Assembly (NCBI GenBank): GCA_019323015.1
Contig: JAHWHY010000003.1
Span: 29,654 to 93,653, forward strand
Length of the DNA: 64,000 nucleotides
DNA from: Candidatus Woesearchaeota archaeon
Lineage (GTDB): Archaea; Nanobdellota; Nanobdellia; Woesearchaeales; ARS49
Direction: 5' to 3'
Part shown: in pieces, positions 16,237 through 30,003 of the stretch
Numbering within the stretch: the first letter of the stretch is position 1
Layout of the letters: each line of letters opens with the position of its first letter
Notes under the pieces: generated by a model
What the model saw: only the letters and a program-made list of their open reading frames with translations
Databases searched by the model: none
Told to the model about the DNA's origin: nothing
Position numbers and translations under genes: made by a program

Positions 16237-16687
16237 CCACAGATTTTTTTGCCTTTGTTATCTTGACTTTTGCATAACGTATTACTTTGCCATTCATTTC
16301 ATATCCTTTCTGTATCTCTTCAACTATCACATCTTCATCATCACCTTCTTCTGTGCATAATACCTCATGCTTGAATGTATCAAACTTTTCTCCTTTTGAT
16401 TTGATTGGTTTGACACCTTGATCAGAAAGTAATTTTGAGATTTTATTATATATCATCTTGATGCCTTCATCTTTCACATTTGGAAGTGCTTTTTCAAAGT
16501 CATCCATTATTGTTAGAAGTTCTGCAATGAGTTTCTCATTTGCAAAGCAAACAAAGTCTTTTTGTTCTTTTACTATGCGTTTTTGATAGTTCTCAAACTC
16601 TGCCTGAAGCCTCTTTAGCTGGTCTTCGTACTCAGCCACTTGCTCCTTTAGCTTGTCTGCCTCTGTTTTTTTATTTTTTTCAGCCAT
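16214..16687 (-). CDS. grpE: nucleotide exchange factor GrpE
   Basis: Coiled-coil N-terminus, [12 protein letters not shown] motif, and a C-terminal beta domain with GKVIRYAKV. Confidence 0.9.
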
Positions 16688-17189: not shown

Positions 17190-17594
17190 ATGATTATCAG
17201 AAAGAAAATAACTATCCTACAGATTAGGAAGCCTTTAAGGACAACCCTAAATGAAGAGTTGCAGTGGTTTGGCAACTCTTTAGGGTTGTTCAACCTCCGT
17301 GACAAAGACAAGTCCTGCTTTCGGGTTTTCATTGAATTATTGAAAGCTGCAAAAGCAGGCATTCCAATTTCTAGTGACCATCTGGCACAAAGACTAGGCT
17401 TGACAAGAGCAACTGTTATTCATCATATCAACACTTTGATGGAAAAAGGCATTGTTATTTCTAAAGGCAGAGGTTATATGTTAAGAGAAGCTAATCTGAA
17501 GCTTCTTGTAGAAGACTTGAAGCAGGATATTACAAGAACCTATGATGAGATTGCAAAGGTTGCAGAGGAGTTAGACCAGTTTTTAGGGCTTTAG
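17190..17594 (+). CDS. winged-helix transcriptional regulator (ArsR/MarR-like), divergent from the Hsp70 operon
   Basis: ISSDHLAQRLGLTRATVIHHINTLMEKGIV is an HTH. Its position suggests a heat-shock operon regulator (inference). Confidence 0.6.
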   Translation: MIIRKKITILQIRKPLRTTLNEELQWFGNSLGLFNLRDKDKSCFRVFIELLKAAKAGIPISSDHLAQRLGLTRATVIHHINTLMEKGIVISKGRGYMLREANLKLLVEDLKQDITRTYDEIAKVAEELDQFLGL

Positions 17595-17596
17595 TC
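17557..17596. repeat. direct repeat R1 (3' end of the HTH regulator gene); partner at 19764-19803
   Basis: 32/40 identical, with the last 18 nt (GTTTTTAGGGCTTTAGTC) identical. Both copies encode ..VAEELD(Q/G)FLGL*. Confidence 0.8.
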
Positions 17597-17616
17597 AATC
17601 ATATTAATACAGGATA

Positions 17617-17638
17617 GCTTGAGGTAAGTCCCTCAAGC
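17617..17638. terminator. perfect 8-bp hairpin between convergent genes
   Basis: GCTTGAGG-TAAGTC-CCTCAAGC. Confidence 0.4.
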
Positions 17639-17672
17639 CACCCTGCAATCGGGTTTTATTCGGTTAAATGTT

Positions 17673-18857
17673 CTATCCAGCTAAATTAACATAAGCCTCA
17701 GAAGACTTGGCTATTCTTTTCTGCAATGGCTTACCTGCTGTTATGTTATAGAACGGCCCTCTTGCATGGTGCTGTACTTGTATATCCTTGAATCCTGCAT
17801 TCTGAAGACTTTCTATGATTCGTTCTTCTTTTGTATAGAATTCTATAATTCCTCTGGCTGCATTATTTTTTTCAAACTCTGCTGCTTTTTTGACAGCAGC
17901 CATTAAATTTGAATCCACAATGCCTTGTCGTTCGCCATCTTCTGCTCTTGATTGTATCGCAGCGTAGTATTTACTTACTGGCTCAACTATTCCTTGTCTA
18001 TCAACATCAGAATCTGGATTGATTAATGGTGCTACAATCTCACCATTTTCTTCACTTACAGCATACTTTCTTTCCTGCAAATGCTGAAGAAGACCAGATT
18101 CTCTTGGAAAGTGCAGCATTCCATATTCATCTATTCTTACTTCAATAGTGCTGTTTCCACTGTTGTATTCAAGCCTGCGGGGATTGCTTCTGTCTCTCTC
18201 ATCAGATATTTCAATAATACAGTCTCCGTAAAATTCTATTAAATCGTTAGCGACAGTATCAATTTTTTTCTCTGAGTATTTCATATCAACTGCACCTGTG
18301 CCAAAATGGAAAAAACCTCCTGGCTTTAGTATACGGTAGATCTCTTGCGTTATTTTATCTAAATCCTTTTCAAAAGGTGTTGCATGATGTATTGATAATG
18401 TGGCATCAACACAAGTAAAGGATTTATCAGGAAACATCAGATTTTTCCTCAAATCTCCTTTTTGGTAGGATATTGTTTCTTTATCCAAAGTTTCTGGATT
18501 GATTTCTCTATCAGTTATTGTGCCTATGCGAAAATAACCAGAATCAAAAAATCCTGCTTTAGCTAATCCCTGTATTGATTGACCAATTTTTTCTGCATCA
18601 AAAACGCAGTCCATTAGGACAATTTTACCTTCCAAGCCCATCATGCCTTTCAACCGATCTCTATCACTTGAGAATGGCAGGACTTGAGGTCCTGGGCCTA
18701 TAACTAGCAATGATCTTTCATCACCTCCATAAGTGCGTCTTGTAACAACAAGATGGTTTTCGATACTGTCCAAAAGATATTGGTGCAAATCATTCAATAC
18801 CGCAGGCGCACTTTTAGTGTATGCATCAGGAAATGCTTCAACAATTTGTTTTGTCAT
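17673..18857 (-). CDS. class I SAM-dependent methyltransferase-like protein (divergent motif I)
   Basis: FTCVDATLSIHHATPFEKDLDKITQEIYRILKPGGFFHF resembles the Methyltransf_11 post-II/III region. Motif I is degenerate (KIVLMDCVFD). Confidence 0.55.
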   Translation of the reverse strand: MTKQIVEAFPDAYTKSAPAVLNDLHQYLLDSIENHLVVTRRTYGGDERSLLVIGPGPQVLPFSSDRDRLKGMMGLEGKIVLMDCVFDAEKIGQSIQGLAKAGFFDSGYFRIGTITDREINPETLDKETISYQKGDLRKNLMFPDKSFTCVDATLSIHHATPFEKDLDKITQEIYRILKPGGFFHFGTGAVDMKYSEKKIDTVANDLIEFYGDCIIEISDERDRSNPRRLEYNSGNSTIEVRIDEYGMLHFPRESGLLQHLQERKYAVSEENGEIVAPLINPDSDVDRQGIVEPVSKYYAAIQSRAEDGERQGIVDSNLMAAVKKAAEFEKNNAARGIIEFYTKEERIIESLQNAGFKDIQVQHHARGPFYNITAGKPLQKRIAKSSEAYVNLAG

Positions 18858-18984
18858 TTTGTTTTCCTCCTAGGACCTTGATAAGCCCCATTTTCTAAAA
18901 CTAGTAGAATTTTTATGCAATAAAAAGAAAGTCAGTAGCTTCAATTGCTTACGAATATTGGTAGTAACAACTACTACTATTTTA

Positions 18985-19001
18985 GGGAAAGCTTTATAAA
19001 C
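18985..19001 (+). promoter_or_regulatory. BRE/TATA promoter of trmB-like gene
   Basis: GGGAAAGCTTTATAAAC is centred about 27 nt upstream of ATG 19023, implying a near-leaderless transcript. Confidence 0.5.
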
Positions 19002-19022
19002 TAAGACTGCTTATTTGGTTTT

Positions 19023-19748
19023 ATGGAGAATGTACTTCAAGAAATCGGATTGTCAAAGAACGAATCAATCGTGTACCTTACACTTTCTGAAATCGGGGCT
19101 GCTTCTGCGTATAGAATATCAAAAGAATCAAAATTATTCAAAGCAAACACGTATGATGTACTGCACAAACTAGAACAAAAAGGTCTTGTTTCAAAGAAAA
19201 GGATAGATAAGAAAGTACTATACGAAGCATTAGATCCTAGTTTGCTTCTTAATATAATAGATTCTAGAAAAGAAAAATTATCTAAGATAATACCTCAAAT
19301 AAGATTGATTCAGCAATTCGTCAAATCAGAAAGCGTAGTAAACATCTACAAAGGAAGTGCTGCATTAAGAAACGCATTTTATCATTTTCTTGAATTTGAT
19401 GAGCCATTCTTAACATACGGGGTGCCAAAAAAAGGTTTTGAAGCAGTTAAATACTGGATAGATAATTTTCATAAGGAACGAATTAAAAAAGGCATAAAAA
19501 TGCTGCATATTTATAATTTTGAAGCTCATGACAGAGTAAAGGTCTTGAACAAATTGCGCTTGACATCAGTCAGATGCTTGCCTCAATTGTATGATTCACA
19601 GGTTGCAACAAATGTCTGTGGAGATGAGGTAGTTCTTATTACCTTTAATCCTGGAATAAAGATAATACAGATCAAAGACAAAGACATGGCAGAAGCATAT
19701 AAAAGATATTTTAAAATTCTCTGGAAACAAGCTAAAAAAGTGACTTAA
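19023..19748 (+). CDS. TrmB-family transcriptional regulator
   Basis: LQEIGLSKNESIVYLTLSEIGAASAYRISKESKLFKANTYDVLHKLEQKGLV is the TrmB wHTH, followed by a C-terminal effector-like domain. Confidence 0.85.
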   Translation: MENVLQEIGLSKNESIVYLTLSEIGAASAYRISKESKLFKANTYDVLHKLEQKGLVSKKRIDKKVLYEALDPSLLLNIIDSRKEKLSKIIPQIRLIQQFVKSESVVNIYKGSAALRNAFYHFLEFDEPFLTYGVPKKGFEAVKYWIDNFHKERIKKGIKMLHIYNFEAHDRVKVLNKLRLTSVRCLPQLYDSQVATNVCGDEVVLITFNPGIKIIQIKDKDMAEAYKRYFKILWKQAKKVT

Positions 19749-19763
19749 GCAGAAACTCTGCCC

Positions 19764-19803
19764 AGGTTGCTGAAGAACTTGATGGGTTTTTAGGGCTTTA
19801 GTC
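19764..19803. repeat. direct repeat R2: relic of an HTH-regulator 3' end downstream of trmB
   Basis: See R1. The frame reads SAQVAEELDGFLGL* with no upstream ORF attached. Confidence 0.8.
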
Positions 19804-19823: not shown

Positions 19824-21776
19824 TTAAATAGTTTTATTTTTAATTTCAAGCATTAAATTCAGGACTTTCTCTTGATTTATCTCATCAAATGACTTAATTG
19901 GCAAATATGTCAGGTCTTTATGTTTCAGGCTACGGCCACAGCAGGAGGCATCATAGAGTTCAATATAGAGCATGCTGTGGTCTTTTTGTTTAAGTACCTC
20001 ATACATCTCTGCTTTAAGTCCTTGCTGTCTTAAGACATCCCCGTCTGTTATCAGCGTCCACAGTGTTCTCCCCTTTGCAAGCATTTTGTTGATTCTCTTG
20101 AAAGTTCCTTTTTCAAGTTCAGTAGAACCTCCATGCCCTGCAAGTATGTTAACTTTTACAGGATGCAGGGTATTATAAAAATCTCGGATATTACATGGGC
20201 CTTGAATCACTGTTTTATCTGAAAATCTTGCAGTCACAATGTCACAGTCTTTACCGCCGCAATATTTTGCTAATGGCTCAACTATACCATACACAAAGCG
20301 GTTCAAAGCATCATATTTGCTCTTACTTCCAACATAACTGAAAGGATGCATGCTAGAAGAAGCATCAACAAGCAATACCAGATTTCGCACAATATCTATG
20401 TCCAGTTCTGCTTGTCTTGTTGCGTATTTATTCTTTGTTTTTTGTTTATATTTTATGATTCTGTATCCTTTTCCATTATTCAATATGATTACATTTTTCT
20501 TTCCTATCTGTCTTCCAAAAGCAATTATTTGTCTCAGGTTATACTTGCCTGCATCTTTTGCAGAGATATTCTGAATGCCTGTCTGCCGCCACTGTATTTC
20601 CTGACCAGATATGTGCTGGACAGGACTTAGTTTTGGTATTGTCAAATTTACAATCTTGCGGTTTTGCTTATAGAACTCATCAGCTGCCTGAAAACTCACG
20701 GAGGTTCCACTATTTGCAGTAAAAAGTATAGTCTCAGCTTGATTTTCGGCGTATTGTATAAGATTGTCCAATGCAGATGTCTGTGAACTATGCGCTGTAA
20801 AAGGCCTGTCACAGGGTTTATACAAAGATATGTGGCTAGCAAGCGGGCGGACAAATCCTTCAACAGCGGCGTATCTTGTTTGCGTTCTCTGAAGAATTTG
20901 AAATAAATCCTTTATTATTTTCTCGCTGGACTGCGAATCAAGATTATTATAAAACTGGTCTACTTCTTCATTAAAATCATTGCGATTTATTTCCAGCCAT
21001 CGCAGTATTTTATCATCTATCTCTGAAATAAAACCTTTTACAGCATTGCAAACAACTGCTGTGCAGTTCTGCTCGTCCATTTTGTCTGCAAAATAAGAAT
21101 AAATTCTGTTTCGGATTTCAAAGTCATTGCAGAACAACGAAGCATACATCAATCTTGTAAGAGTATAAAACGCCATATCCCACTTCTTTTCCTTAAATGT
21201 TGAAACAATATCAAACAAAGGGATTATTCCTTCTGGAAGCCTGTTTTCTGGTCTTAATTGTTCTGACAGGATTCTCTTGAATTTGGCATCATAAGTAATA
21301 TAATAATACTGAAAAAGGTCTATTATACAATCCCATACGCAGTTTCGTGAATTTGCAACAAGGTTTGGTTTCCAATGATCTGGAATGTACTGGCATTCTT
21401 TACTGATTGCAGAGTATATCGCTTCATCAATCTTCCTTTCATCAGTTGAAGTCTCAGGACAGAGCTTATGAAATTGCTCATGAAACAGAAGAGATAATTT
21501 ATTGTCTTGAACAAGCATTTCCAGATTTAGGCCATCTGGATAAGCTCTGCGATAAAATCTAGTATTTACTTTACGAAATATTTGCGCAAGTTCTGTGGGT
21601 TTATACAAATATGCTCTTATTCTTTTTTTGTTTGTACTGAAATGCCATAACTCTTTGTTTTTTACAGCTGGTTTTGTTGTCTCTATCACAGTTTCCTTGA
21701 ATTTAGGAAACCCTTGCCTAAGTAGGGGGTCAATTTCTAATATTGCATTATCCAGCCCATTGCTTACTAAAGACAT
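19824..21776 (-). CDS. HExxH metallopeptidase-like N-domain + C-terminal vWA domain with complete MIDAS
   Basis: LLFHEQFHKL (nt 21468-21482). VLLVDASSSM (DxSxS, nt 20352-20366), GHGGST and LITDGD complete the MIDAS. 10-nt overlap with the upstream ATPase gene. Confidence 0.7.
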   Translation of the reverse strand: MSLVSNGLDNAILEIDPLLRQGFPKFKETVIETTKPAVKNKELWHFSTNKKRIRAYLYKPTELAQIFRKVNTRFYRRAYPDGLNLEMLVQDNKLSLLFHEQFHKLCPETSTDERKIDEAIYSAISKECQYIPDHWKPNLVANSRNCVWDCIIDLFQYYYITYDAKFKRILSEQLRPENRLPEGIIPLFDIVSTFKEKKWDMAFYTLTRLMYASLFCNDFEIRNRIYSYFADKMDEQNCTAVVCNAVKGFISEIDDKILRWLEINRNDFNEEVDQFYNNLDSQSSEKIIKDLFQILQRTQTRYAAVEGFVRPLASHISLYKPCDRPFTAHSSQTSALDNLIQYAENQAETILFTANSGTSVSFQAADEFYKQNRKIVNLTIPKLSPVQHISGQEIQWRQTGIQNISAKDAGKYNLRQIIAFGRQIGKKNVIILNNGKGYRIIKYKQKTKNKYATRQAELDIDIVRNLVLLVDASSSMHPFSYVGSKSKYDALNRFVYGIVEPLAKYCGGKDCDIVTARFSDKTVIQGPCNIRDFYNTLHPVKVNILAGHGGSTELEKGTFKRINKMLAKGRTLWTLITDGDVLRQQGLKAEMYEVLKQKDHSMLYIELYDASCCGRSLKHKDLTYLPIKSFDEINQEKVLNLMLEIKNKTI

Positions 21777-23800
21777 TCAAAATACCACCCTGCAAGAGCC
21801 TCTTTATACTTGTGCTTTATGTTGGGGTTTTCTGTTTTCTTCTTGTATAAATCACCCAGTTTACTTAATCGCGCATCAGCATCGCTATGCTCCTTAATTA
21901 TGTTATCACATTCATCAGCATACAATTCTAGAAAGTCTATCAGTTCTATTAGGTTTCTTGTATGCCTTAAGTGTATGAGTTTTTCTATCTCAGATTCAGA
22001 ATTATAATAGATTCTATTAATTTCATCGCATATGCTTTTTATTGCTGAATAAGTATCTTCGCTTTCTTTTAGGCTGTTTTTAAAAATGCCTTGTTTTATT
22101 CCTTCTGTAAATTTACCTTTTCGGTGTTTATATAGCACAGAGATATATTCCTGATAAACTTCTTTGACTCCTTCCGATAAATCTGTGCCGCGGCATTGCC
22201 CATTAATTATCGTTGCTGCAGCCATATGCTCTGGCAGAACAAGATACGCTTGATTGTCATCAAGCAACGCTTTTAAGGGATTTTCTTCATTAAGTGCAGA
22301 TTTTAGCACGTCTATTGTTGATATAAACCTTGCGTATTTCTCAATGTAAACTACATCTCTTGTAGTCCAGTCATATCCATTGCAGTTTTCTGTCAAATCC
22401 TTTAATTCATCTTTTTCAAAATCAAATTCGAAGTTAGGCAGATCTAATTCATATTTGTCTTTAAGTAACGCAGTAATTGCAGTCATGTCTTCACATCCCT
22501 CCCTAACAACATCCTGCAAGCCACTGCCAAGTATAAAAATAAGGCAATCTGCAAATTCTCGTGAAAATTTTACAATATGTCTTTTTGTTTTTTCAGCATC
22601 TGTTATGAACGCATAATGCGCCAGTCTATCCTGTTCTATATCCTCCGCTGAAACAGAGACATCCAAAATTTTCTTTATATATTTGCCATATGACTTGGTG
22701 AATTGCTTATCCAGCGCATCTTGAAGTTTCGCGCCCATTACCGCTGCGCCAGTTAATCTTGGAGAATCTTCAAATTCAATCACAAAGAATCTGTTGTACA
22801 AGGCAAAATCTATTTCTTCAGTGCCATTATATTTGGGGTCTTTTGATGGCGGAGGGTTCTGTGCTCCAATAAAGAAGAATTTTCTTCTGTTCTTATCAAA
22901 AACAATCCCTTCTTCTGTAAATTGGGGAATAATCACTCCTAACGGATACTTTTTGCCTTCTATGTTCACACTACCTTGGCTGAGGTCAAAAAGCACATTG
23001 GTATCTCCACGATTCAGTTCATCAACAAAAAAAGCCCCTAATCTATCCATGAGTTCTTTTCTTGGCACATCAATAGGCAATCCGCCGTTATAGGATTCAG
23101 ATTTGGTTATTACTTCAAGAGGATTTGTTCTGATATTATTGAATTTAAAAACAGCATAATTCTCTTTGCCTAAAAAAGTATTCAAATATGTTTCTGCCCA
23201 AAATGTCTTCCCGCCACCTGTTCTGCCTTCAAAAAGTACAGGAAGGTCTCCTAAAAGGTTTGAAGCAAAAAGTACATCCAGCGCAGTTATATTTATTCCG
23301 TTCTTGGTGTTTTTTCCTTTTGCTTTTTCAAAGATGATTTCTTTTTTTTCAAAATTAAAGTCATAATGAAATAATTTAGTGGGATTAGCAGCATCATGTA
23401 TGACTTCGTCCAAAGCGCAGTACGCAGCAAGCAGCAATCCTGCATGAATATATTTTTCTTTTTGAATTTCATTGCCTTGAAAAGAGTTCCATATTTTTTT
23501 AAGGCTTGCAGGTTCTTTTACCTGTTGTTCAATTATTTCATCAAGTTTTTTTGAATTTTCCATTTCTTCTGCCTCTTTCAAGGATTCTTCATCAACAGGC
23601 ACTGCGCTTGCAAGCGCTTCGCCAAATTCTTCATTTTGCTTTAGCAGTTCCTCTGTCTTACGGAGCATATCTTCAGCAGTTTGTTCTTGATAGGTTGCCC
23701 AATCAGCCGGATTAAGCGGTCTTTTGAACCCGCCTTTGCCTTGAACATCTTTGAATAAGCTCTTTCCTCGCTCCTTAATTTTTCTTATCAGCTGCCCCAT
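21767..23800 (-). CDS. MoxR-like AAA+ ATPase with long N- and C-terminal extensions (677 aa)
   Basis: Walker A GRTGGGKT (nt 23204-23227), Walker B FFVDELNR (23009-23032), sensor-1 IGAQNP, and ALYNRF, in MoxR-type order. Confidence 0.75.
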   Translation of the reverse strand: MGQLIRKIKERGKSLFKDVQGKGGFKRPLNPADWATYQEQTAEDMLRKTEELLKQNEEFGEALASAVPVDEESLKEAEEMENSKKLDEIIEQQVKEPASLKKIWNSFQGNEIQKEKYIHAGLLLAAYCALDEVIHDAANPTKLFHYDFNFEKKEIIFEKAKGKNTKNGINITALDVLFASNLLGDLPVLFEGRTGGGKTFWAETYLNTFLGKENYAVFKFNNIRTNPLEVITKSESYNGGLPIDVPRKELMDRLGAFFVDELNRGDTNVLFDLSQGSVNIEGKKYPLGVIIPQFTEEGIVFDKNRRKFFFIGAQNPPPSKDPKYNGTEEIDFALYNRFFVIEFEDSPRLTGAAVMGAKLQDALDKQFTKSYGKYIKKILDVSVSAEDIEQDRLAHYAFITDAEKTKRHIVKFSREFADCLIFILGSGLQDVVREGCEDMTAITALLKDKYELDLPNFEFDFEKDELKDLTENCNGYDWTTRDVVYIEKYARFISTIDVLKSALNEENPLKALLDDNQAYLVLPEHMAAATIINGQCRGTDLSEGVKEVYQEYISVLYKHRKGKFTEGIKQGIFKNSLKESEDTYSAIKSICDEINRIYYNSESEIEKLIHLRHTRNLIELIDFLELYADECDNIIKEHSDADARLSKLGDLYKKKTENPNIKHKYKEALAGWYFECL

Positions 23801-24938
23801 GTAATCCAGTAACTATAGTCCCCCAAAATTTCATCCATCTTTCTTTTGCTTTTTTCTTTCGTTGGCCAGCATTGCCTGAATTGAGATAAGTATCTATCAT
23901 ATCATCAAAAGATGTTGCAGGTGCGCCAAATCCTGTTTTATCTGCATAAATTTTAAAAGCCTCATCAAATGCTGAAAAAAGTTCATAAGCCGCTTCTTTT
24001 CTCGCTAATTCTTTTTGTATTGCCGGATCTGATTTACCGCGCGCAAAAAGACCTCTGCCTGCATCAAAAAAATATTTTATGCCTTTCTTAACTTTAGCGC
24101 AAAGGCTTTCAGCAAATACTGCCTCCTTTATGTCTTCACGCATTTTCTCAGCAGTTTGATACCTATCTTCTGGAAAATACTCTAATGCTTTTGCACAGAT
24201 TTTATCCAGTTTTTTTGGAATAGCAGGATTAGATTCTGAAGGATGTCTGAGGCAGGTAGGTAATTTTCCTGTCAACAGTTGGTACAAAACCACACCTGCA
24301 GAAAAAATATCAGATCGCTTATCGATTCTGCCCGCTCTTTGCTCAGGCGCCATGTACCAAAAAGTTCCTGCAGCACTTGTGCGTAATTTCAAAGTTGAGC
24401 TTAACTCGTCTCCGCTGTAAAGCTGGTCAGATTCTGTGCTCTGTTCATCTGATTCTTGTGCTAATAGCTTAGCTAAACCAAAGTCTGTCACCTTTGCCGA
24501 TGTCAAGTAAGAATATTCATTTGGCAACAAAATATTTGATGGTTTTATATCCCTATGTATTATTCCTTTTTCATGCGCTGAACTTATTGCATCAAGCACA
24601 TCCAGCATAACCCAACAGGTTTCTGCAGGACTGATTCTTCTTTGCTTTAATACATTTTCAAGATTCTTGGGTAAATATTCCATTACAGAAAATTGTGTAT
24701 CCTGTATTGTCCCTAAATTAAATACTCTTACAATATGACAACAAGAATCAGAAAGCATTCCTTGCATCGCAGTATTATCTGCGAAATCTTTGCGGCCGCC
24801 GGTATTCAATTTAATAGTAATATATCTATCAAAACCTACTTGTTCTGCTTTATACACCACACCATTACCGCCTCTGCCGATTTCTTCGATTATCTTTATT
24901 TTTCCATCTTCCAAATAATCATCAGATTTTAGCTCCAT
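23775..24938 (-). CDS. Hanks-type Ser/Thr protein kinase with about 110-aa C-terminal extension
   Basis: IGRGGNGVVYKA...ITIK, HRDIKPSNILL, VTDFGLAK, WYMAPEQ. Confidence 0.9.
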   Translation of the reverse strand: MELKSDDYLEDGKIKIIEEIGRGGNGVVYKAEQVGFDRYITIKLNTGGRKDFADNTAMQGMLSDSCCHIVRVFNLGTIQDTQFSVMEYLPKNLENVLKQRRISPAETCWVMLDVLDAISSAHEKGIIHRDIKPSNILLPNEYSYLTSAKVTDFGLAKLLAQESDEQSTESDQLYSGDELSSTLKLRTSAAGTFWYMAPEQRAGRIDKRSDIFSAGVVLYQLLTGKLPTCLRHPSESNPAIPKKLDKICAKALEYFPEDRYQTAEKMREDIKEAVFAESLCAKVKKGIKYFFDAGRGLFARGKSDPAIQKELARKEAAYELFSAFDEAFKIYADKTGFGAPATSFDDMIDTYLNSGNAGQRKKKAKERWMKFWGTIVTGLHGAADKKN

Positions 24939-25390
24939 TAGATGTTGCCTCCGCGAAATTGTTCTCTGTACAGGTCCTCTATCAATTCATGTTGCCTGAT
25001 TTGAGTAATTGGAAAATTTGAATCCAATTCTGATTTAAAATCATTCATTTCTTTGTTATCCTTAAAGATAGCTTCAAAAAGAAAATCAAAATCACTGTTT
25101 GTTATATGCAAATTGTTTACGCAAGGTTGGCTTGAGAGAAATTCTCTCAAGCTTTCCCTGCAATCGGGTTTTACTCGGATCAGGAATACATATCTTGCAT
25201 GATACCCTAGTTTTTTGAAATCCACAATGCTTGCGTGCTTCTTTATCACGTCTTCTTCCAGTTTTCCAATCCTGTCAAACACAGTCGATTTAGGGGTGTT
25301 TGTGGCAGATGCAATACTAGCAAGGTTAGTTCTTGCATTCTGCCGTAGCTGCTTGACAATCTGCAGGTCTTTTTCTGAGATCATTTCCAA
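24938..25390 (-). CDS. Lrp/AsnC-family transcriptional regulator
   Basis: KDLQIVKQLRQNARTNLASIASATNTPKSTVFDRIGKLEEDVIKK is the HTH_AsnC motif, with a RAM-like C-terminus. TAATG overlap with the kinase start. Confidence 0.85.
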   Translation of the reverse strand: MEMISEKDLQIVKQLRQNARTNLASIASATNTPKSTVFDRIGKLEEDVIKKHASIVDFKKLGYHARYVFLIRVKPDCRESLREFLSSQPCVNNLHITNSDFDFLFEAIFKDNKEMNDFKSELDSNFPITQIRQHELIEDLYREQFRGGNI

Positions 25391-25398
25391 AACCTTTC

Positions 25399-26289
25399 TT
25401 ATTCCTTGGCTATGTCATCAAGGCTGAAAGGAAGGCAAACACCAAATCTTTGATGCCATACATCTCTGCCTTTGCTGTCTTTTCCAGACCTCAGATATTC
25501 CAGTAAAGGCCTCTGTCTTTCATCTGGGCTTGGTCTTCCGCCAACAGTATACTTGCCCTTGCCTTCAGGAAGCAGTGCACCAGAATCTTCTGTTGTTATT
25601 CCAAAATCTCCTTCCAGCAATGATTTTTCCAGTCTTAACCTCTCTTTGCCTTCTGTATCTGGGAGTGTGCCGTCTGCTTTTTTCAAAGGAGCTCTTGCCA
25701 GGATGTATCCTACTGCCTCAAAGCAGGACATCTGCTCAAGCAGTGCATAGTCTTTTTCAGCTGCAGCAGTCCAGGAGTAAACTTCGTCTTTTCCATCAGA
25801 TGTCTGAAACTCCAGCACAACAGACCTGGATCGCAGTTCTTTGCTTGTTATTCCATATTGTGCGATTCTTTGGTCCTTGCCTAATACTTCATCCAGTCTC
25901 TCTGCTTCGCCTTCTGGTTGTTTATATCCTATTGCAAAAGGTAATACCCCTTCTTCCTCCTCTTCTTTCATTGGCACTGTAAAAGGCAGCACTATTTCCT
26001 CTTCTGCTTCTCGGTCGATTGAAAAGGGCAGTGTTTGTTCTTCCTCATCTTCTGGCCTTGGCACTGTAAAAGGCAGCACTATTTCCTCTTCAAGTTCCTT
26101 TTGTTTCTGTATTTGTCTTTTCTTTTGTCTTATTTCAGACAAATCTATTGGCTTGCCAGAGTCTCCATTCTGGGCATTGTTCTGAGCATAGTTTCTCTGC
26201 AAGATTTGTCTTTTCTTTTCTCTTAGTTCAGCCAGATTTATCTTTGGTAATTTGTCATCGTCTGGTTGATTTTCATTTTCTTTTGTCAT
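25399..26289 (-). CDS. acidic repeat protein: 2x basic (I[ND]L[AS]E[LI]R.KKRQI) + 4x (acidic run + [IVT]LPF) motifs, unknown C-terminal domain
   Basis: EEEIVLPFTVP / EEEQTLPFSID / EEEIVLPFTVP / EEEGVLPFAIG. A 32-bp perfect DNA repeat occurs at 25973-26004 and 26060-26091. Confidence 0.6.
   Translation of the reverse strand: MTKENENQPDDDKLPKINLAELREKKRQILQRNYAQNNAQNGDSGKPIDLSEIRQKKRQIQKQKELEEEIVLPFTVPRPEDEEEQTLPFSIDREAEEEIVLPFTVPMKEEEEEGVLPFAIGYKQPEGEAERLDEVLGKDQRIAQYGITSKELRSRSVVLEFQTSDGKDEVYSWTAAAEKDYALLEQMSCFEAVGYILARAPLKKADGTLPDTEGKERLRLEKSLLEGDFGITTEDSGALLPEGKGKYTVGGRPSPDERQRPLLEYLRSGKDSKGRDVWHQRFGVCLPFSLDDIAKE
25973..26091. repeat. in-frame 87-nt-period duplication inside the repeat-protein gene
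   Basis: GGCACTGTAAAAGGCAGCACTATTTCCTCTTC is present twice, perfectly. Confidence 0.9.
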
Positions 26290-26432
26290 TTTGATTTGCC
26301 TCCCCGAATGTCTCGGATAATATCCATATATGTCGGAAGAAATATATATAGTTTCAGCAATTATAATTATTATAGCAATTATAGTAATTACAAACCGAAA
26401 ACTATTTATATGACGCGCTGTGATAGCAGAAT

Positions 26433-27383
26433 ATGAAGCGAAAAGTCAATAGGGTGGGCATAAACACCCTTACAGTAAGCTTGCCTAGCAAATGGGCCAA
26501 GCTTCACAATATCAAGCCAGGAGATGAGCTAGATGTAGTAGAAGAAAATAATACGCTTTCAATAATTAAAGGGCAGTTTGCAAAGAAAAAGAAAGAAATT
26601 CATATTGATATGGATAATCTTGATTATTTTACATTAGCCAAACTGCTGATTGCATGCTATGAAGAAAGTTATGATTCCATAAAACTCACGTTTTCTAAAA
26701 AAACAATACAAGATTCTGTTACAGGAGAAGAAATAGATATTTTCAGAGCAATAGACCGTCTTGTGGGAAGATTGCCTACATTCCAGATATTCAGCCAATC
26801 AAATGAGAGGATAATGCTGGGAGACATATCAGAAAAATTGAGTAAATTGGATATTATAATATCCCGGGTATTCTTTCTTATTGAAGAATATTTATTGCGG
26901 TTGATAGAAGACATAAAAACCGGCGATTTTGCAGATTTAAATGCCAGAGAACCAAGACATGACTCCATAGCAAAACAAATTGCTTTGGCAAATAGGATTT
27001 TAATGGATGATGCCTCTAAATCAAAAAGCGAAATTGTGAACACAATCTTGGTTCTAAATTATTTAGATAAAGCAACAGATTTCATAAGATACGGCTACAA
27101 ACATACACAGCGCCATAATAAAAAAATAAGTAAATCAGGCATCAAATTAATGGAAGATGCAACAGAATATATTAAATTATTTAGAACTTGTTACAACAAA
27201 TGCGAGTATAACAACATTAATAAATTGGATATTTTACGAAGTAAAGTCAAAAAAGCAAATCAAAAGATTGCATCAGCAAATCCTTCAGAATTAATCATTG
27301 TTTCAAATCTCAAATGTTTGGTTGAACTGTTAAATGGTGCAGTAAAGGCAGTAATTGCAATTAAATTAGACAAAGAAAATTAG
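26433..27383 (+). CDS. AbrB/SpoVT-type DNA-binding domain + PhoU-like helical domain regulator
   Basis: KVNRVGINTLTVSLPSKWAKLHNIKPGDELDV is a swapped-hairpin AbrB motif. The long helical C-terminus matches archaeal AbrB-PhoU proteins. Confidence 0.65.
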   Translation: MKRKVNRVGINTLTVSLPSKWAKLHNIKPGDELDVVEENNTLSIIKGQFAKKKKEIHIDMDNLDYFTLAKLLIACYEESYDSIKLTFSKKTIQDSVTGEEIDIFRAIDRLVGRLPTFQIFSQSNERIMLGDISEKLSKLDIIISRVFFLIEEYLLRLIEDIKTGDFADLNAREPRHDSIAKQIALANRILMDDASKSKSEIVNTILVLNYLDKATDFIRYGYKHTQRHNKKISKSGIKLMEDATEYIKLFRTCYNKCEYNNINKLDILRSKVKKANQKIASANPSELIIVSNLKCLVELLNGAVKAVIAIKLDKEN

Positions 27384-27393: not shown

Positions 27394-30003
27394 TCAGTTT
27401 AATTCATTCAAATAATATTGTCGTATTGCCTCATTTTTTTGTGTTTGTTCTCTCTTTCTACGAACTCCTGCGAAAATAGATAATTGCAGCAAACGAACAG
27501 GTTCAAAATATTTATGCATCTCTTCATGTTTCCTTGAATCTGCAGCAAATTCTTCATCATGCTCACTGCGCAGCCGGATATATTCACAAAGATATTGCCG
27601 CCTAGTATCTGAATTCAGTTGTAAATCTATATGCGATAAGAAATAACTGATATCTTCAATCTCTTTTCCTAGATGACTGACTCCAAAGTCCAGAACATAT
27701 CCATTCTTAGTATTCTCTAGTTTCCAATCTCCATGAACAACACAATCACCTTGCTCACGCAGATATAGCTCTGTTTCTTCTATTCTCCTTCCGAGCTCCT
27801 TAACTAAGTTTTTAGAAGGCATATTTTGACGAAATCTTCTTAATTCGCTCCTACTAAAACTAGATAAAGGATTTCTCAAAGATTCGTAATGCGGCTCGCC
27901 TTGTAAAGTCTGATAAATCAAACCAGGCAAGACAATACCTTTCTCTTTTCCGGATTCTTTAAGTGCTTCTGTCGCTTCCTTATGGAATATGCCCATCAAA
28001 TATAAATTATGCAGCACAGGATTCTTACAAAATCCAGATTTTACCAAAGCCGATTGTCCCTGTGCAGTATTGCTCAAAACCATTACACCTATATTATCTA
28101 ATTCCAGATATTCTTTCAATTCTGGCATGAATGCACGCATTGCATTAAGTTCTAAGTCATAAATCCTTTTTTCGTTTTGGCAAATATCCTTCCTAGCAAC
28201 TTTAACCACAACACCGTTTGATGCAAGAACAATGCCAGAGCTGAAACCTCCTTTTAATTCATTACTTGCATCATATTCTTTAATCTTAGCCACAAGAGTT
28301 TCATTTTCAAAACCTGCTTTTGTTAGAAGATCACGAATCAAATCTTCCTCAGAAGGCATTTGCTGAGAGTAAGGAAAACTGCCAGAAATATCTACATGTA
28401 TACCACGCGCCTTTAGTTTTCTGACTGCTTCTGTATTAGCATACTTGCCGTTCTTAATAAGAGTCCAATTAATAGAATCGGGCAGCCTTATTTTCTTTAG
28501 ACTTCCATTCTTAGCAAACTCGTAATCTGGCAAGTCTGAAATATCTGTTACAGGCGTTTCAACTAAATCAATTTCTTCAAGATTTTGATAAGTTTTTAGC
28601 AATGAGAGTTCTTTATTTCCAAACTTATGATTATTTCGCAAATCAATATATTTCAGAGTTACACTCAATGAATCAGAACCTAAACCAGAGTAATTCTTAA
28701 TATTGCCGCACAGGGGCATAATCAAAACTCTTAAATTTTGATAATCTCTGAGAAAATTAACATCTTCTAGTGCCTTACTGCTTGAAATATCCAAATGTCT
28801 TAGTGTTTCCTTCACAGTTAGCGAATCTAATCCAGAAAAATTCTCAATACTGCAATTGCCAAGTTGAAGTATTTCAAGTTGTTTGTAATCATCTAAAAAA
28901 GAAGTGTCCCTTAAAATAGTACTGTTAAGGTTTAAGCTTTGAACTGTAGCCTTAATCGATTCAGAAGCCAGGCCAGAAAAATCAATTCGGCTTTGCTCAA
29001 CAGAAGGAGACAAAGGATTAGAACTGTCTACAGTAAATCCACAGTCTTCAGCATTAATAATCCTCAGCTTTTTGTAGCCTGTTAAAAAAGACACGTCTCG
29101 CAGACCAGTATTATGGCTTAAGTCTAGTTCTTCTAACGTCTCTTTTAAAGATTCAGAATTCAAGCCAGAAAAATCTTCAAGACTTGCGCAACTGGATATA
29201 TCCAAAATCTTTAGGTGTTTGTATCCCTCAAGGAAGGAAACATTATTCAAGCCAGCGCAGTCATTAATATCAAGTATTTCTACTGTTTGTTTAAGTGAAT
29301 CATCATCCAGGCCTGTGAATCTGCGGATATTTCCGCAACTTGCAATGTTTAAATGTACTAAATTTTTATAACCTTTTAAAAAAAGCAAGTCATAGAGGCG
29401 CGTGTTAGTTAGTATCAATTCCTGCAATGTATCTTTCAAATCACCTGAATCTAATCCTTCAGGATGCGAAATAGGGCAATTATCTAAATGCAATACTTTA
29501 AGGCTTTTGTACCTTTTAAGAAAATGAACACGATCTATATCAGCCTGTGCACTAAGATATAATTCTTCAAGAGTTTGTTTTATATGGAATGAATTAAGCG
29601 CTGAAAAATCAGCCACTTCAGAACGGCTCAAATCCAGAGATTTTAGATTCTTGTAATTTTCTAAAAAAACTAAATTTGCCAGTTTGCAGTCAACACCAAG
29701 CTCTAATGATTGCAGAGTTTCCTGCAAATTCTCAGATGCAAGCGGTGTGAAATCAGATATTTTAGCTGCGGAGTTCGAAAGACCTCGACTTTGATATGTG
29801 GCGTATTTCCTCGAATGATTACTTTTCCTGATAATATTTTGCTCATTATGCATAACAAGCTTCTCCAAGTGATTAAATTTCTCTATTCCTGCAAGACTGG
29901 TAAGCCAATCTGACTCCTGCTCTCCAGGAATAACCAAATCACCCCATAGAAGTATGTCCGGCCCTTTATCCTCAATCCAGTCATTCAAACTACGCGTTTC
30001 CAT
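27394..30003 (-). CDS. cytoplasmic LRR protein (about 9 Cys-containing LRR super-repeats) fused to C-terminal kinase-like (APH/ePK-fold) domain
   Basis: Repeats of the form SFLxxYKxLxxLxxxxCxxxxxFSGLxSxSLKETLxxLDLS. C-terminus has VVKVARK, CVVHGDWKLENT (nt 27721-27750) and VLDFG. No signal peptide or TM segment. Confidence 0.75.
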   Translation of the reverse strand: METRSLNDWIEDKGPDILLWGDLVIPGEQESDWLTSLAGIEKFNHLEKLVMHNEQNIIRKSNHSRKYATYQSRGLSNSAAKISDFTPLASENLQETLQSLELGVDCKLANLVFLENYKNLKSLDLSRSEVADFSALNSFHIKQTLEELYLSAQADIDRVHFLKRYKSLKVLHLDNCPISHPEGLDSGDLKDTLQELILTNTRLYDLLFLKGYKNLVHLNIASCGNIRRFTGLDDDSLKQTVEILDINDCAGLNNVSFLEGYKHLKILDISSCASLEDFSGLNSESLKETLEELDLSHNTGLRDVSFLTGYKKLRIINAEDCGFTVDSSNPLSPSVEQSRIDFSGLASESIKATVQSLNLNSTILRDTSFLDDYKQLEILQLGNCSIENFSGLDSLTVKETLRHLDISSSKALEDVNFLRDYQNLRVLIMPLCGNIKNYSGLGSDSLSVTLKYIDLRNNHKFGNKELSLLKTYQNLEEIDLVETPVTDISDLPDYEFAKNGSLKKIRLPDSINWTLIKNGKYANTEAVRKLKARGIHVDISGSFPYSQQMPSEEDLIRDLLTKAGFENETLVAKIKEYDASNELKGGFSSGIVLASNGVVVKVARKDICQNEKRIYDLELNAMRAFMPELKEYLELDNIGVMVLSNTAQGQSALVKSGFCKNPVLHNLYLMGIFHKEATEALKESGKEKGIVLPGLIYQTLQGEPHYESLRNPLSSFSRSELRRFRQNMPSKNLVKELGRRIEETELYLREQGDCVVHGDWKLENTKNGYVLDFGVSHLGKEIEDISYFLSHIDLQLNSDTRRQYLCEYIRLRSEHDEEFAADSRKHEEMHKYFEPVRLLQLSIFAGVRRKREQTQKNEAIRQYYLNELN

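What the first reader, a model, noticed from the sequence alone, without database searches (positions are those of the whole stretch)
19824..26289. Five-gene translationally coupled operon: LPF-repeat protein, Lrp/AsnC, Hanks Ser/Thr kinase, long MoxR-like AAA+ ATPase and HExxH+vWA protein - candidate undescribed NTP-dependent signalling/conflict system
What the sequence shows:
- Five minus-strand ORFs are packed so tightly that a single coupled transcript is implied. In order: 26289-25399, 8-nt gap, 25390-24938, TAATG 1-nt overlap, 24938-23775, 26-nt overlap, 23800-21767, 10-nt overlap, 21776-19824.
- (i) An acidic protein with four acidic-run+[IVT]LPF motifs and two basic KKRQI motifs.
- (ii) An Lrp/AsnC HTH regulator.
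- (iii) A kinase with GRGGNGVVYK, HRDIKPSN, DFG and APE.
- (iv) An AAA+ ATPase with GRTGGGKT, FFVDELNR, GAQNP and ALYNRF, which is MoxR-type motif order.
- (v) A protein with HEQFH plus a vWA domain carrying a full MIDAS (DASSS, GGST, TDGD).

Established knowledge: MoxR ATPases work with vWA partners as NTP-driven switches. Comparative genomics has tied MoxR-vWA modules, sometimes with a third component, to biological-conflict systems. vWA plus Ser/Thr kinase is also the core of TerY-type stress triads.

Inference: I know of no described system that hard-wires a MoxR-vWA pair to a eukaryotic-like kinase, a dedicated Lrp regulator and a multivalent short-motif protein. The operon sits in an accessory-looking region, next to an LRR-kinase gene and between rearrangement scars, which would fit a sensor/effector or defence role.
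Basis: partly seen in the sequence, partly recalled or inferred. Interest (0 to 1): 0.85.

Follow-up and report, generated by a model that had tools for sequence, protein, structure and literature searches.

The report
Orphan archaeal ATPase–vWA pair plus kinase
Only the last two of these five tightly packed genes, a MoxR/midasin-type ATPase and its metal-binding vWA partner, form a conserved unit; it is an unannotated family restricted to tiny DPANN archaea, and only in this genome is it joined to a protein kinase, a regulator and an acidic repeat protein.

Summary
In detail: all five minus-strand ORFs, their junctions and every quoted motif are present. The host is a Woesearchaeota (DPANN) archaeon.

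Pfam confirms the Hanks kinase (7.5e-35, all catalytic motifs) and the Lrp/AsnC regulator. The ATPase and the "HExxH+vWA" protein match no curated model. Deeper analysis supports both calls:
- The ATPase has 54 distant relatives among 1.84 billion representatives. Their profile hits midasin AAA modules (1.3e-10) and 19 of 40 members hit Pfam AAA_5.
- The partner's AlphaFold model matches vWA/integrin I-domains and NorD. Its MIDAS residues and HExxH are conserved across the family.

The five-gene "system" is not conserved. In 28 other distinct DPANN loci the ATPase is followed by this partner, and in most it is preceded by 1–8 tandem copies of an unknown ~250-aa protein ("cluster0"). None of these loci has a kinase, Lrp or LPF homologue.

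The window's block sits in a hypervariable slot. One sister genome carries an unrelated gene there; another carries a different kinase overlapping a classical AAA ATPase. Overlapping genes are common in this genome.

Verdict: a new, DPANN-specific variant of the MoxR–vWA remodelling pair, here uniquely and probably co-transcriptionally joined to a kinase/Lrp/repeat-protein cassette. A defence role is unsupported.

The parts
25399..26289 (-). LPF repeat protein (296 aa): acidic, soluble, with four acidic-run+[VT]LPF motifs and two KKRQI motifs in the N-terminal 125 aa, and a 170-aa C-terminal region with no recognisable family
   Evidence: ORF; motifs; no Pfam, NCBIfam, PADLOC or PHROG hit; singleton 90% cluster; no homologue in any fetched locus; good SD (GGGGAGG) 9 nt upstream of the ATG
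25931..26092 (-). Tandem DNA repeat (42-45 nt, about 3 copies; also seen as 2 x 74 nt at 82% identity) that encodes the EEE-x-LPF motifs
   Evidence: D2
24938..25390 (-). Full-length Lrp/AsnC regulator (HTH plus ligand-binding RAM domain); likely start is the ATG at 25384
   Evidence: Pfam HTH_24 1.4e-7, HTH_AsnC-type 5.8e-7, AsnC_trans_reg 4.1e-5; NCBIfam Lrp-type hits, all below equivalog cut-offs
23775..24938 (-). Hanks-type Ser/Thr kinase (387 aa) with all catalytic motifs and a 108-aa basic C-terminal tail of unknown family; no transmembrane segment
   Evidence: Pfam Pkinase 7.5e-35; motifs; SD GGAGG 10 nt upstream
21767..23800 (-). Long AAA+ ATPase (677 aa) of the AAA_5/MoxR-midasin clade: about 95 aa of K/E-rich N-terminal extension (unique to this copy), AAA core, and about 330 aa of helical C-terminal region shared by the family
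   Evidence: 54 relatives among 1.84e9 representatives; family profile vs midasin AAA modules, best domain 1.3e-10; AAA_5 in 19 of 40 members; phrog_249 CobS-type 1.9e-5 for the window protein itself
22766..23323 (-). AAA core (about residues 160-345): Walker A G192-T199, Walker B D260/E261, sensor-1 N315, Arg R337 in ALYNRF
   Evidence: G192, G195, G197, K198, E261, N315 and R337 invariant in 40 of 40 sequences; D260 in 38 of 40
19824..21776 (-). Partner protein (650 aa): N-terminal helical domain with HExxH...C, a middle helical region, and a C-terminal vWA domain with a complete MIDAS
   Evidence: homologues adjacent to the ATPase in 28 distinct loci; AF2 model pLDDT 63.8; Foldseek hits to integrin I-domains and NorD
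21459..21482 (-). HEQFHKLC (residues 99-106): candidate metal-binding or peptidase site
   Evidence: HExxH present in all 10 family members that cover the region, Cys in 9 of 10; no zincin family assignable
19857..20399 (-). vWA domain (about residues 460-640) with MIDAS D471-x-S473-x-S475, T552 and D578
   Evidence: MIDAS residues invariant or conservatively substituted; target TM-score about 0.6 to integrin alphaM I-domain, and NorD of the NorQD complex among the hits; hhalign to the ATV ORF892 vWA domain 3.8e-5; Pfam VWA_2 5.6e-4 in 2 of 12 homologues
26290..26432 (.). Divergent intergenic region between the LPF gene and an AbrB/MazE-like regulator gene; contains a TATA-like tatatata about 60 nt upstream of the LPF ATG and an 18-nt direct repeat (26356-26390)
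   Evidence: promoter function is inferred, not tested
19759..19803 (+). Orphan copy of the 3' end of the HTH134 gene (encodes AQVAEELDGFLGL*), 20 nt from the stop of the partner gene; marks the original edge of the variable slot
   Evidence: (D4); the sister genomes end in DGFLGL*, as this remnant does

Best explanation
The locus is a composite of two modules.

Module 1 is genes 4 and 5. It is an obligate two-gene remodelling unit that belongs to an unannotated family restricted to DPANN archaea.
- It pairs an AAA_5/MoxR-midasin-class ATPase carrying a long helical C-terminal domain with a co-factor that combines an HExxH helical domain and a vWA domain with a complete MIDAS.
- By analogy with RavA-ViaA, NorQ-NorD, CbbQ-CbbO, CoxD-CoxE, midasin and ATV p618-p892, the ATPase probably forms a hexameric ring.
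- The partner's MIDAS metal probably grips an acidic side chain of a client protein, and ATP hydrolysis remodels or releases that client. The HExxH site may add a metal-dependent, possibly proteolytic, step.
- In nearly all other genomes the likely clients are tandem cluster0 paralogues (or other tandem ~250-300-aa genes) encoded just upstream.

Module 2 is genes 1 to 3: the acidic LPF repeat protein, Lrp/AsnC and an active Hanks kinase. It is specific to this lineage and occupies exactly the position where the cluster0 array normally sits.
- The five genes are probably transcribed together from the divergent promoter region upstream of the LPF gene, perhaps under Lrp control.
- In this genome the LPF protein and/or the kinase most likely act as the client or as a phospho-regulator of the ATPase-vWA pair.

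What is shown: the domain identities, the pair's conservation, the uniqueness of the upstream cassette and the hotspot location. What is inferred: hexamer formation, MIDAS-client binding, any peptidase activity, co-transcription and any kinase/LPF-ATPase functional link.
For: Pair identity:
- Family profile against midasin AAA modules: E 8.7e-29 overall, best single domain 1.3e-10.
- AAA_5 in 19 of 40 members, bpMoxR in 2 and AAA_3 in 1. phrog_249 hits the window protein at 1.9e-5.
- Walker A, Walker B, sensor-1 and the Arg are conserved in 38-40 of 40 sequences.
- The partner model matches vWA/I-domains and NorD, and its MIDAS and HExxH are conserved.

Obligate pairing: the ATPase is followed by the partner, directly or after 1-2 small genes, in 28 of 28 assessable distinct loci.

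Third component: cluster0 gives 52 hits in 18 distinct loci, in tandem arrays mostly upstream of the ATPase.

Reasons to think the upstream cassette is linked to the pair in this genome:
- Same strand, with gaps of -26 to +8 nt and SD motifs.
- Cluster0 is absent from the whole 64-kb window, so the pair would otherwise have no nearby client.
- The LPF protein has cluster0-like size and position, and carries repeated acidic motifs of the kind MIDAS sites bind (MIDAS-ligand chemistry is established knowledge for integrins and midasin).
- A sister genome has a kinase overlapping a different AAA+ ATPase in the same slot.

MoxR-vWA mechanism: PMC7159879 and PMC4124505.
Against: - The five-gene arrangement exists in one genome only (the same contig recovered from several samples), so there is no comparative support for a kinase/LPF-ATPase link.
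- Gene overlap is common in this genome.
- The ATPase start, and hence the overlap with the kinase gene, is not certain.
- LPF shows no homology to cluster0 (hhalign probability 0.2%; jackhmmer never recruits it). Its repeats do not match the cluster0 N-terminal motif.
- The partner model is only moderate (pLDDT 63.8), and the HExxH region is at pLDDT about 60.
- No zincin family could be assigned.
- Neither large protein passes any curated Pfam or NCBIfam threshold on its own.
Confidence: 0.5

Rival explanations
1. Pure juxtaposition. The conserved ATPase-vWA pair and an unrelated kinase/Lrp/LPF signalling cassette landed side by side in a recombination hotspot of a compact genome. They may share a transcript but have no functional connection, and the pair's real clients are encoded elsewhere or have been lost.
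For: None of 28 other loci has a kinase, Lrp or LPF. The slot between HTH134 and p140 has different content in each of three related genomes. There is an insertion scar and a later insertion of methyltransferase + TrmB. 28% of same-strand gene pairs overlap, and mixed-function tight runs exist elsewhere in the window. Met80 is a possible alternative ATPase start.
Against: Cluster0, or any tandem ~250-aa array, is missing from the whole window, so the pair would have no client nearby. All catalytic and MIDAS residues are intact despite 25-29% identity to relatives, so the pair is still under selection. A kinase-AAA+ pairing recurs in the sister genome's slot.
Confidence: 0.3
2. One reading: the five genes form one dedicated NTP-dependent conflict or defence system, a MoxR-vWA switch wired to a kinase effector, an Lrp sensor-regulator and a multivalent decoy or scaffold.
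For: Location in a hypervariable accessory slot beside an LRR/APH-like protein. MoxR-vWA ternary conflict systems exist, and some carry S/T/Y kinase domains on the vWA component (PMC7159879). The kinase domain resembles PADLOC kinase models such as PD-T4-6 and mad6.
Against: The PADLOC kinase hits are generic Hanks-domain similarity, and the ATPase, partner and LPF have no PADLOC hit. No VMAP, iSTAND, FtsH or beta-propeller third component and no effector (nuclease, TIR, caspase, pore-former) was detected. The arrangement is unique to one genome. The conserved relatives look like a housekeeping or assembly operon with tandem client genes, not a diversifying effector system. No viral or mobile-element association was found.
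Confidence: 0.12
3. A virus- or mobile-element-derived assembly module. Like ATV p618/p892, the long ATPase and large vWA protein would chaperone the assembly of a filament or particle built from the tandem paralogues, and the locus would be a provirus remnant.
For: Architectural parallel to ATV p618 (618 aa, AAA core plus helical C-terminus) and p892 (vWA), which act on several structural proteins (PMC4124505). Foldseek viral hits include ATV ORF892, the HVTV-1 vWA protein and many long phage VWFA proteins. The ATPase hits the phage CobS-type PHROG.
Against: hhalign shows only generic AAA-core (E 2e-4) and vWA (E 3.8e-5) similarity to p618 and p892. tblastn against 50,697 phage genomes and two IMG/VR scans found nothing. 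Family loci lie on long chromosomal contigs (up to 502 kb) among ribosomal, RNA polymerase and tRNA-synthetase genes. No integrase, capsid or terminase gene was seen beside them.
Confidence: 0.05

Closest known systems
MoxR-class AAA+ ATPase with vWA co-factor pairs (RavA-ViaA, NorQ-NorD, CbbQ-CbbO, CoxD-CoxE; phage and bacterial CobS-CobT)
   Same: An AAA_5-type ATPase encoded immediately upstream of a vWA protein with a complete MIDAS. Same catalytic motif set, including the 'A-x-x-N/D-R-F' arginine motif. NorD appears among the structural hits, and the CobS-type PHROG hits the ATPase.
   Different: Both proteins are about twice as long as NorQ/CbbQ/CobS-type partners and fall below every curated Pfam or NCBIfam threshold. 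The ATPase has a family-specific ~330-aa helical C-terminal region. The partner carries a conserved N-terminal HExxH...C domain not assignable to any family. The family is confined to DPANN archaea and has its own associated protein (cluster0).
Midasin/Rea1 (eukaryotic ribosome-assembly AAA+ with a C-terminal MIDAS domain)
   Same: Best sequence match of the ATPase family profile (best single AAA module 1.3e-10). The logic of an AAA_5 ring plus a MIDAS domain that grips an acidic residue of the client is the same.
   Different: Midasin is a single ~4,700-4,900-aa polypeptide with six concatenated AAA modules and a tethered MIDAS domain. Here there is one AAA module per chain and a separate vWA protein, and there is no evidence of a role in ribosome assembly.
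MoxR-vWA ternary conflict systems (VMAP, iSTAND, FtsH and beta-propeller types; Kaur, Burroughs, Iyer and Aravind 2020, PMC7159879)
   Same: A MoxR-vWA core plus a variable third component. Some vWA components in those systems carry S/T/Y kinase domains. 2 of 40 ATPase family members weakly hit Pfam bpMoxR.
   Different: None of the four defining third components was detected. [quoted passage not shown] No effector domains were found. The hosts are DPANN archaea, not multicellular bacteria. The family's own third component is the unknown cluster0 protein.
ATV p618 / p892 (archaeal virus tail-development chaperone pair)
   Same: A long (~620-aa) MoxR-type ATPase with a helical C-terminal part, a large vWA protein, and several client proteins (PMC4124505). 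ORF892 is a structural hit.
   Different: Only domain-level homology. The genes are not adjacent in ATV. The family described here is chromosomal, with no viral relatives found.
TerY-type phosphorylation triad (vWA + PP2C phosphatase + Ser/Thr kinase)
   Same: Co-occurrence of a vWA protein and a Hanks kinase. One partner homologue weakly hits Pfam vWA-TerF-like (0.009).
   Different: No PP2C phosphatase in or beside the operon. The vWA protein here is paired with an AAA_5 ATPase. The kinase link is not conserved.

Membership tests
AAA+ ATPases, helix-2-insert clade (Pfam AAA_5 / MoxR-midasin-CobS group) | Significant match to AAA_5-type profiles or to solved members | tested here: met
   The window protein alone gets no Pfam hit at E<=0.01 but hits phrog_249 (CobS-type) at 1.9e-5. 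The family profile hits midasin AAA modules at 1.3e-10 and also lists McrB and NorQ. 19 of 40 members hit AAA_5 individually.
AAA+ ATPases, helix-2-insert clade (Pfam AAA_5 / MoxR-midasin-CobS group) | Intact Walker A, Walker B, sensor-1 Asn and conserved Arg in the 'ALxxRF' motif | tested here: met
   G192, G195, G197, K198, E261, N315 and R337 are invariant in 40 of 40 sequences; D260 in 38 of 40.
AAA+ ATPases, helix-2-insert clade (Pfam AAA_5 / MoxR-midasin-CobS group) | Helix-2 insert and pre-sensor-1 beta-hairpin in the 3-D structure | not testable with these tools
A model built from alignment A1 would settle this.
MoxR proper (Pfam AAA_3) | Match to the AAA_3 model | tested here: not met
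   The window protein has no hit, and only 1 of 40 family members hits AAA_3. The family is MoxR-class in the broad sense, not MoxR proper.
vWA domain with functional MIDAS | vWA (Rossmann-like alpha/beta) fold | tested here: met
   Essentially all listed Foldseek PDB hits are vWA/integrin I-domains (target TM-score about 0.6 over about 200 columns), including NorD 9qhe_G. Sequence support is weak: VWA_2 at 5.6e-4 in 2 of 12 homologues and none for the window protein. The model is of moderate confidence.
vWA domain with functional MIDAS | DxSxS ... T ... D metal-coordinating residues | tested here: met
   D471, S473, S475, T552 and D578 are present in the window protein and invariant or conservatively substituted (S to T) across members. 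Metal binding itself was not tested.
Zincin-type metallopeptidase / Pfam DUF2201_N | HExxH in a recognisable zincin domain with a third metal ligand | tested here: inconclusive
   HExxH is conserved in 10 of 10 members covering the site, followed by a conserved Cys, Asp-Glu and WD..ID. However, there is no Pfam hit, including DUF2201_N, in 12 members at E<=1. No PDB sequence hit was found for that domain. No structural hit to it appeared among the top 50, and local pLDDT is about 60.
Hanks-type (eukaryotic-like) Ser/Thr protein kinase | Pkinase domain with G-loop, catalytic Lys, HRD, DFG and APE | tested here: met
   Pfam Pkinase 7.5e-35; all motifs present.
Lrp/AsnC transcription regulators | N-terminal HTH plus C-terminal RAM ligand-binding domain | tested here: met
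   HTH_24 1.4e-7 and HTH_AsnC-type 5.8e-7 are above cut-off. AsnC_trans_reg at 23.8 bits is just under its 25-bit cut-off.
MoxR-vWA ternary conflict systems (VMAP / iSTAND / FtsH / beta-propeller) | Presence of one of the defining third components | tested here: not met
   No such Pfam family appears in any of the five proteins or their neighbours. PADLOC has no hit for the ATPase, partner or LPF.
TerY-type phosphorylation triad | vWA + PP2C phosphatase + Ser/Thr kinase encoded together | tested here: not met
   No PP2C in the operon or among the flanking genes scanned. The rest of the window was not scanned for PP2C.
Conserved five-gene system (as proposed) | Recurrence of the gene set or order in other genomes | tested here: not met
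   None of 28 distinct family loci has a kinase, Lrp or LPF homologue within the fetched flanks. The close sister genomes lack the block.

The most novel reading that the evidence does not exclude
The DPANN ATPase and HExxH-vWA pair, together with the tandem cluster0 arrays, is a previously unrecognised fifth kind of MoxR-vWA ternary system, and the first that is archaeal and specific to symbionts. In it the vWA/HExxH protein would act as a MIDAS-guided, ATPase-gated processing enzyme for a diversifying set of client proteins, for example host-interaction or surface-structure subunits. In this genome the client array has been swapped for a phospho-signalling cassette, giving a kinase-controlled version of the switch. 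The recurrence of a kinase overlapping a different AAA+ ATPase in a sister genome's slot hints that kinase-AAA+ coupling is a general theme in these archaea.
Probability: 0.15. Interest if true: 0.75.

Novelty: new variant of a known kind. Interest (0 to 1): 0.5.

Why it matters
MoxR-vWA pairs are among the most widespread and least understood chaperone-like machines, and for most of them the client is unknown.

This family has three useful properties:
- It is invisible to Pfam, NCBIfam and PADLOC, and its members are annotated only as "hypothetical protein".
- It is confined to the genome-reduced, symbiotic DPANN archaea, where keeping about 4 kb for two genes implies an important function.
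- It comes with its probable clients encoded next door, as tandem cluster0 paralogues. That makes the client question directly testable by co-expression and pull-down.

The conserved HExxH on the vWA co-factor suggests a remodel-and-cut mechanism not described for characterised MoxR systems.

The window's unique version pairs the machine with an active Hanks kinase, a dedicated Lrp and a multivalent acidic-motif protein. It is a natural experiment in rewiring such a machine to phospho-signalling, but as a single occurrence it remains only a lead.

Tried and rejected
1. The indexed protein search (search for homologous proteins) returned only the query for the ATPase, the partner and the 40-sequence ATPase profile. 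Its word prefilter fails for this K/E-rich, divergent family. The exhaustive HMMER search was needed.

2. Single-sequence AlphaFold of the ATPase gave pLDDT 33 and was unusable.

3. I tested whether LPF is a cryptic cluster0 homologue. hhalign probability was 0.2%, and HMM and jackhmmer searches never recruited it. Rejected.

4. I tested whether the LPF repeats mimic the cluster0 N-terminal motif (VVEGGxVxFG). The best PSSM hit scored 4.2 bits, was out of register, and ranked 7th of 21,596 positions. Rejected.

5. I tested whether the kinase is a divergent cluster0 protein. hhalign probability was 0.15%. Rejected.

6. I tested specific orthology with ATV p618/p892 and found only generic domain similarity. 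No hits were found in phage genomes or IMG/VR.

7. DUF2201_N or any zincin assignment for the HExxH domain: no hit in 12 members, and no PDB sequence hit.

8. The methyltransferase flank used as a synteny anchor has no relatives in GTDB representative genomes. DnaK worked instead.

9. Automatic pattern design failed for alignments A1, A2 and A3. It worked for A4 and A9.

10. The downstream ORFs in L010 and L014 are not recognisably the partner, and L013 retains only a 70-aa fragment downstream of the ATPase. All three contigs are too short to decide, and L014 is a possible exception to strict adjacency.

Full report
**1. The observation**

All five minus-strand ORFs are at the stated coordinates, and the junction arithmetic is right: an 8-nt gap, then 1-, 26- and 10-nt overlaps. 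The LPF motifs are encoded by a 42-45-nt tandem DNA repeat.

There are three qualifications.
- The Lrp gene more likely starts at the ATG at 25384, giving 148 aa as in two independent gene calls.
- The ATPase carries a ~95-aa K/E-rich N-terminal extension that its homologues lack. Met80, preceded by AGAGG, is an alternative start. However, 79 stop-free codons have about a 0.4% chance at this composition, so the long form, and with it the 26-nt overlap with the kinase gene, is more likely.
- Tight packing is normal in this genome. 42% of same-strand neighbours are 10 nt or less apart, 28% overlap, and dnaJ-HD-HAD-dnaK-grpE forms an equally tight five-gene run.

**2. Host and context**

The DNA ligase is 88% identical, and DnaK 92-93% identical, to Candidatus Woesearchaeota MAGs. 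The identical contig occurs in a JGI metagenome (3300017987) and in Logan assemblies.

In two sister genomes (L015, L016) the flanking genes HTH134 (window 17190-17594) and p140 (30187-30609) are conserved at 85-96% (L015) and 46-96% (L016), but the DNA between them differs:
- the window has 12.6 kb;
- L015 has 1.3 kb holding one unrelated 332-aa ORF;
- L016 has 3.6 kb holding a 264-aa ORF, a 510-aa Hanks kinase (35% identical to the window kinase) and, overlapping the kinase by 53 nt, a classical AAA ATPase (Pfam AAA 2.2e-29).

A 45-nt degenerate copy of the HTH134 3' end lies at 19759-19803, 20 nt from the stop of the partner gene. It encodes the ancestral ...DGFLGL* ending. This shows that the methyltransferase + TrmB segment (17597-19758) is a later insertion and that the five-gene block originally abutted HTH134. 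The "accessory region with rearrangement scars" claim is therefore correct.

**3. The three upstream genes**

- The kinase is a bona fide Hanks kinase (Pkinase 7.5e-35) with G-loop, K43, HRD, DFG and APE. It has a 108-aa basic tail of no known family.
- The Lrp/AsnC protein is full length.
- The LPF protein matches nothing in Pfam, NCBIfam, PADLOC or PHROGs. It is a singleton cluster and has no homologue in any of the ~130 fetched loci.
- None of the five proteins has a transmembrane-grade hydrophobic segment.

**4. The ATPase**

It has no Pfam, NCBIfam, PADLOC or PDB sequence hit on its own. An exhaustive HMMER scan of 1.84 billion representatives found only 54 relatives at 23-35% identity.
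- A 40-sequence profile hits midasin AAA modules (E 8.7e-29 overall, best single domain 1.3e-10), then McrB and NorQ weakly.
- 19 of 40 members individually hit Pfam AAA_5, 2 hit bpMoxR and 1 hits AAA_3.
- The window protein itself hits the phage CobS-type PHROG at 1.9e-5 across the AAA core.
- Walker A, Walker B, sensor-1 Asn and the Arg of ALYNRF are conserved in 38-40 of 40 sequences.

It is thus MoxR-class in the broad AAA_5 sense, not MoxR proper (AAA_3). The clade-defining helix-2 insert could not be checked because no usable model was obtained.

**5. The partner**

It also has no curated hit. Homologues recovered from neighbouring genes conserve HExxH, followed by Cys, Asp-Glu and a WD..ID motif, in 10 of 10 members that cover the site. 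They also conserve the full MIDAS set DxSx[ST]...T...D.

An AlphaFold model built on six sequences (pLDDT 63.8) gave Foldseek hits that are essentially all vWA/integrin I-domains (target TM-score about 0.6). These include NorD in the NorQ-NorD complex. In the viral library the hits were long phage and archaeal-virus VWFA proteins, including ATV ORF892. Two of twelve homologues reach Pfam VWA_2 at about 6e-4.

The HExxH domain could not be assigned to DUF2201_N or any other zincin family, so peptidase activity remains a hypothesis.

**6. Synteny, the decisive test**

Contexts were gathered through exact-protein look-ups, one metagenome scan and two genome scans.
- The ATPase is followed by this partner, directly or after one or two ~260-300-aa genes, in 28 distinct loci. 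That is every locus with enough downstream sequence.
- L014 is a possible exception, on a truncated contig.
- All loci are from Woesearchaeota, Pacearchaeota or Nanoarchaeota MAGs. Some binchicken MAGs are labelled "Methanosarcinales" but carry Woesearchaeota-like genes.
- In 18 distinct loci, 1-8 paralogues of an unknown ~240-320-aa soluble protein (cluster0) flank the pair, mostly in tandem just upstream of the ATPase. Cluster0 has an N-terminal VVEGGxVxFG-type motif and a C-terminal NPYL...P...R.F motif, and no Pfam or PDB relative. Other loci have different tandem ~250-300-aa genes in that position.
- No locus contains a kinase, Lrp or LPF homologue.
- Cluster0 is absent from the entire window.
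- No relatives occur in 50,697 phage genomes or in IMG/VR.

**7. Interpretation**

The conserved functional unit is the two-gene ATPase-partner pair. The canonical system is cluster0 array + ATPase + partner. The window carries the most divergent copy of the pair (25-29% identity to all others) with all catalytic residues intact, and the client position is occupied by LPF-Lrp-kinase.

I consider it most likely (about 0.5) that the pair works as other MoxR-vWA machines do (PMC7159879, PMC4124505). The MIDAS would capture an acidic residue of a client, and the ATPase would remodel it. In this genome the upstream cassette would supply the client and/or phospho-regulation, with the acidic, multivalent LPF protein as the obvious candidate.

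The main rival (about 0.3) is functionally meaningless juxtaposition in a hotspot. A dedicated defence system (about 0.12) has no positive evidence: there is no PADLOC hit beyond generic kinase similarity, no known third component, and no effector. A viral-assembly origin (about 0.05) rests only on architectural analogy to ATV p618/p892, which share just the generic domains.

**8. Novelty**

MoxR-vWA pairs are a known kind. This family has several distinctive features:
- it is invisible to curated profiles;
- it is restricted to DPANN;
- its ATPase has a long helical C-terminal region;
- its vWA partner bears an HExxH motif;
- it has its own tandem-paralogue third component.

Its members are annotated only as "hypothetical protein", and the literature held here describes nothing like it. 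The kinase/Lrp/LPF coupling is unique but has been seen only once. I therefore rate it a new variant of a known kind, of moderate interest.

Noticed in passing
L098:4366-8181, L011:4601-10026, L111:1544-6273 and 15 other loci: 'Cluster0': an unannotated family of soluble ~240-320-aa proteins in arrays of 1-8 tandem paralogues, mostly directly upstream of the ATPase-vWA pair. It has a short conserved N-terminal motif (VVEGGxVxFG / PPEDVVFEEG) and a C-terminal NPYL..L..P...R.F..G motif, and no Pfam or PDB relative. These proteins are probably the real clients of the pair.
   Followed up: partly
L016:5022-7668 (JAHWHZ010000003.1, sister Woesearchaeota genome): In the same genomic slot, the sister genome has a 510-aa Hanks kinase whose gene overlaps by 53 nt a 388-aa classical AAA ATPase (Pfam AAA + AAA_lid_3). 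This is a second, non-homologous kinase-AAA+ pairing at the same hotspot.
   Followed up: partly
window 17552-17596 and 19759-19803: A 45-nt direct repeat (78% identity). The second copy is an orphan 3' end of the HTH134 gene with the ancestral ...DGFLGL* ending. The methyltransferase + TrmB segment between the copies (17597-19758) therefore looks like an insertion into the gene's 3' end that regenerated a new C-terminus (...DQFLGL*).
   Followed up: yes
window 17641-17663 and 25156-25178: A 22/23-nt identical direct repeat (CCCTGCAATCGGGTTTTAYTCGG). One copy is in the intergenic DNA at the left edge of the inserted segment and the other lies inside the Lrp coding sequence (residues ~71-78). 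The chance expectation is about 1e-4 in 15 kb. It has no extension on either side and no explanation.
   Followed up: partly
window 27394-30003 (-): An 869-aa protein with N-terminal leucine-rich repeats (LRR_4 2.1e-26). Its C-terminal ~310 aa carry HGDWKLEN and DFG motifs and hit Pfam APH only weakly (0.021). It may be an LRR-linked aminoglycoside/choline-kinase-like domain. It has no homologue in the sister genomes' slots.
   Followed up: partly
window 26356-26390: An 18-nt direct repeat (AGCAATTATAATAATTAT, 1.9 copies) in the divergent intergenic region between the LPF gene and the AbrB/MazE-like regulator gene (26433-27383). It is a candidate operator for the Lrp or the AbrB-like protein.
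   Followed up: no
window 12045-16687 (-): The grpE-dnaK-dnaJ chaperone operon has HAD-hydrolase and HD-domain genes inserted between dnaK and dnaJ, with 4-44-nt overlaps. The arrangement is conserved in both sister genomes, and an FHA-domain gene (11640-12008) follows dnaJ.
   Followed up: partly
L095, L098, L099, L011 partner genes (e.g. L011:12526-14355): Most partner homologues carry a G/Q/S/E-rich low-complexity linker (up to ~100 aa in L011) between the helical region and the vWA domain. The window protein lacks it entirely.
   Followed up: no
L105:9992-16425 / L106:8278-16044: In one branch of the family the pair is accompanied downstream by a different set of small paralogous proteins (125-284 aa, mutually related at 1e-6 to 1e-23) instead of cluster0. 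The 'pair + multi-copy small paralogues' theme therefore recurs with non-homologous families.
   Followed up: partly
L004, L018, L019, L111, L117 and other loci titled 'uncultured Methanosarcinales archaeon': Many binchicken/SRP co-assembly MAGs labelled Methanosarcinales carry DNA ligase, DnaK and this ATPase-vWA family at 70-85% identity to Woesearchaeota genes. The taxonomic labels on these records look wrong.
   Followed up: no
L011:11913-14355, L097:174-2363, L103:4503-6640: In three loci the partner gene is split into two ORFs, by frameshift, assembly error or genuine split. In L011 the split falls after the HExxH domain.
   Followed up: no
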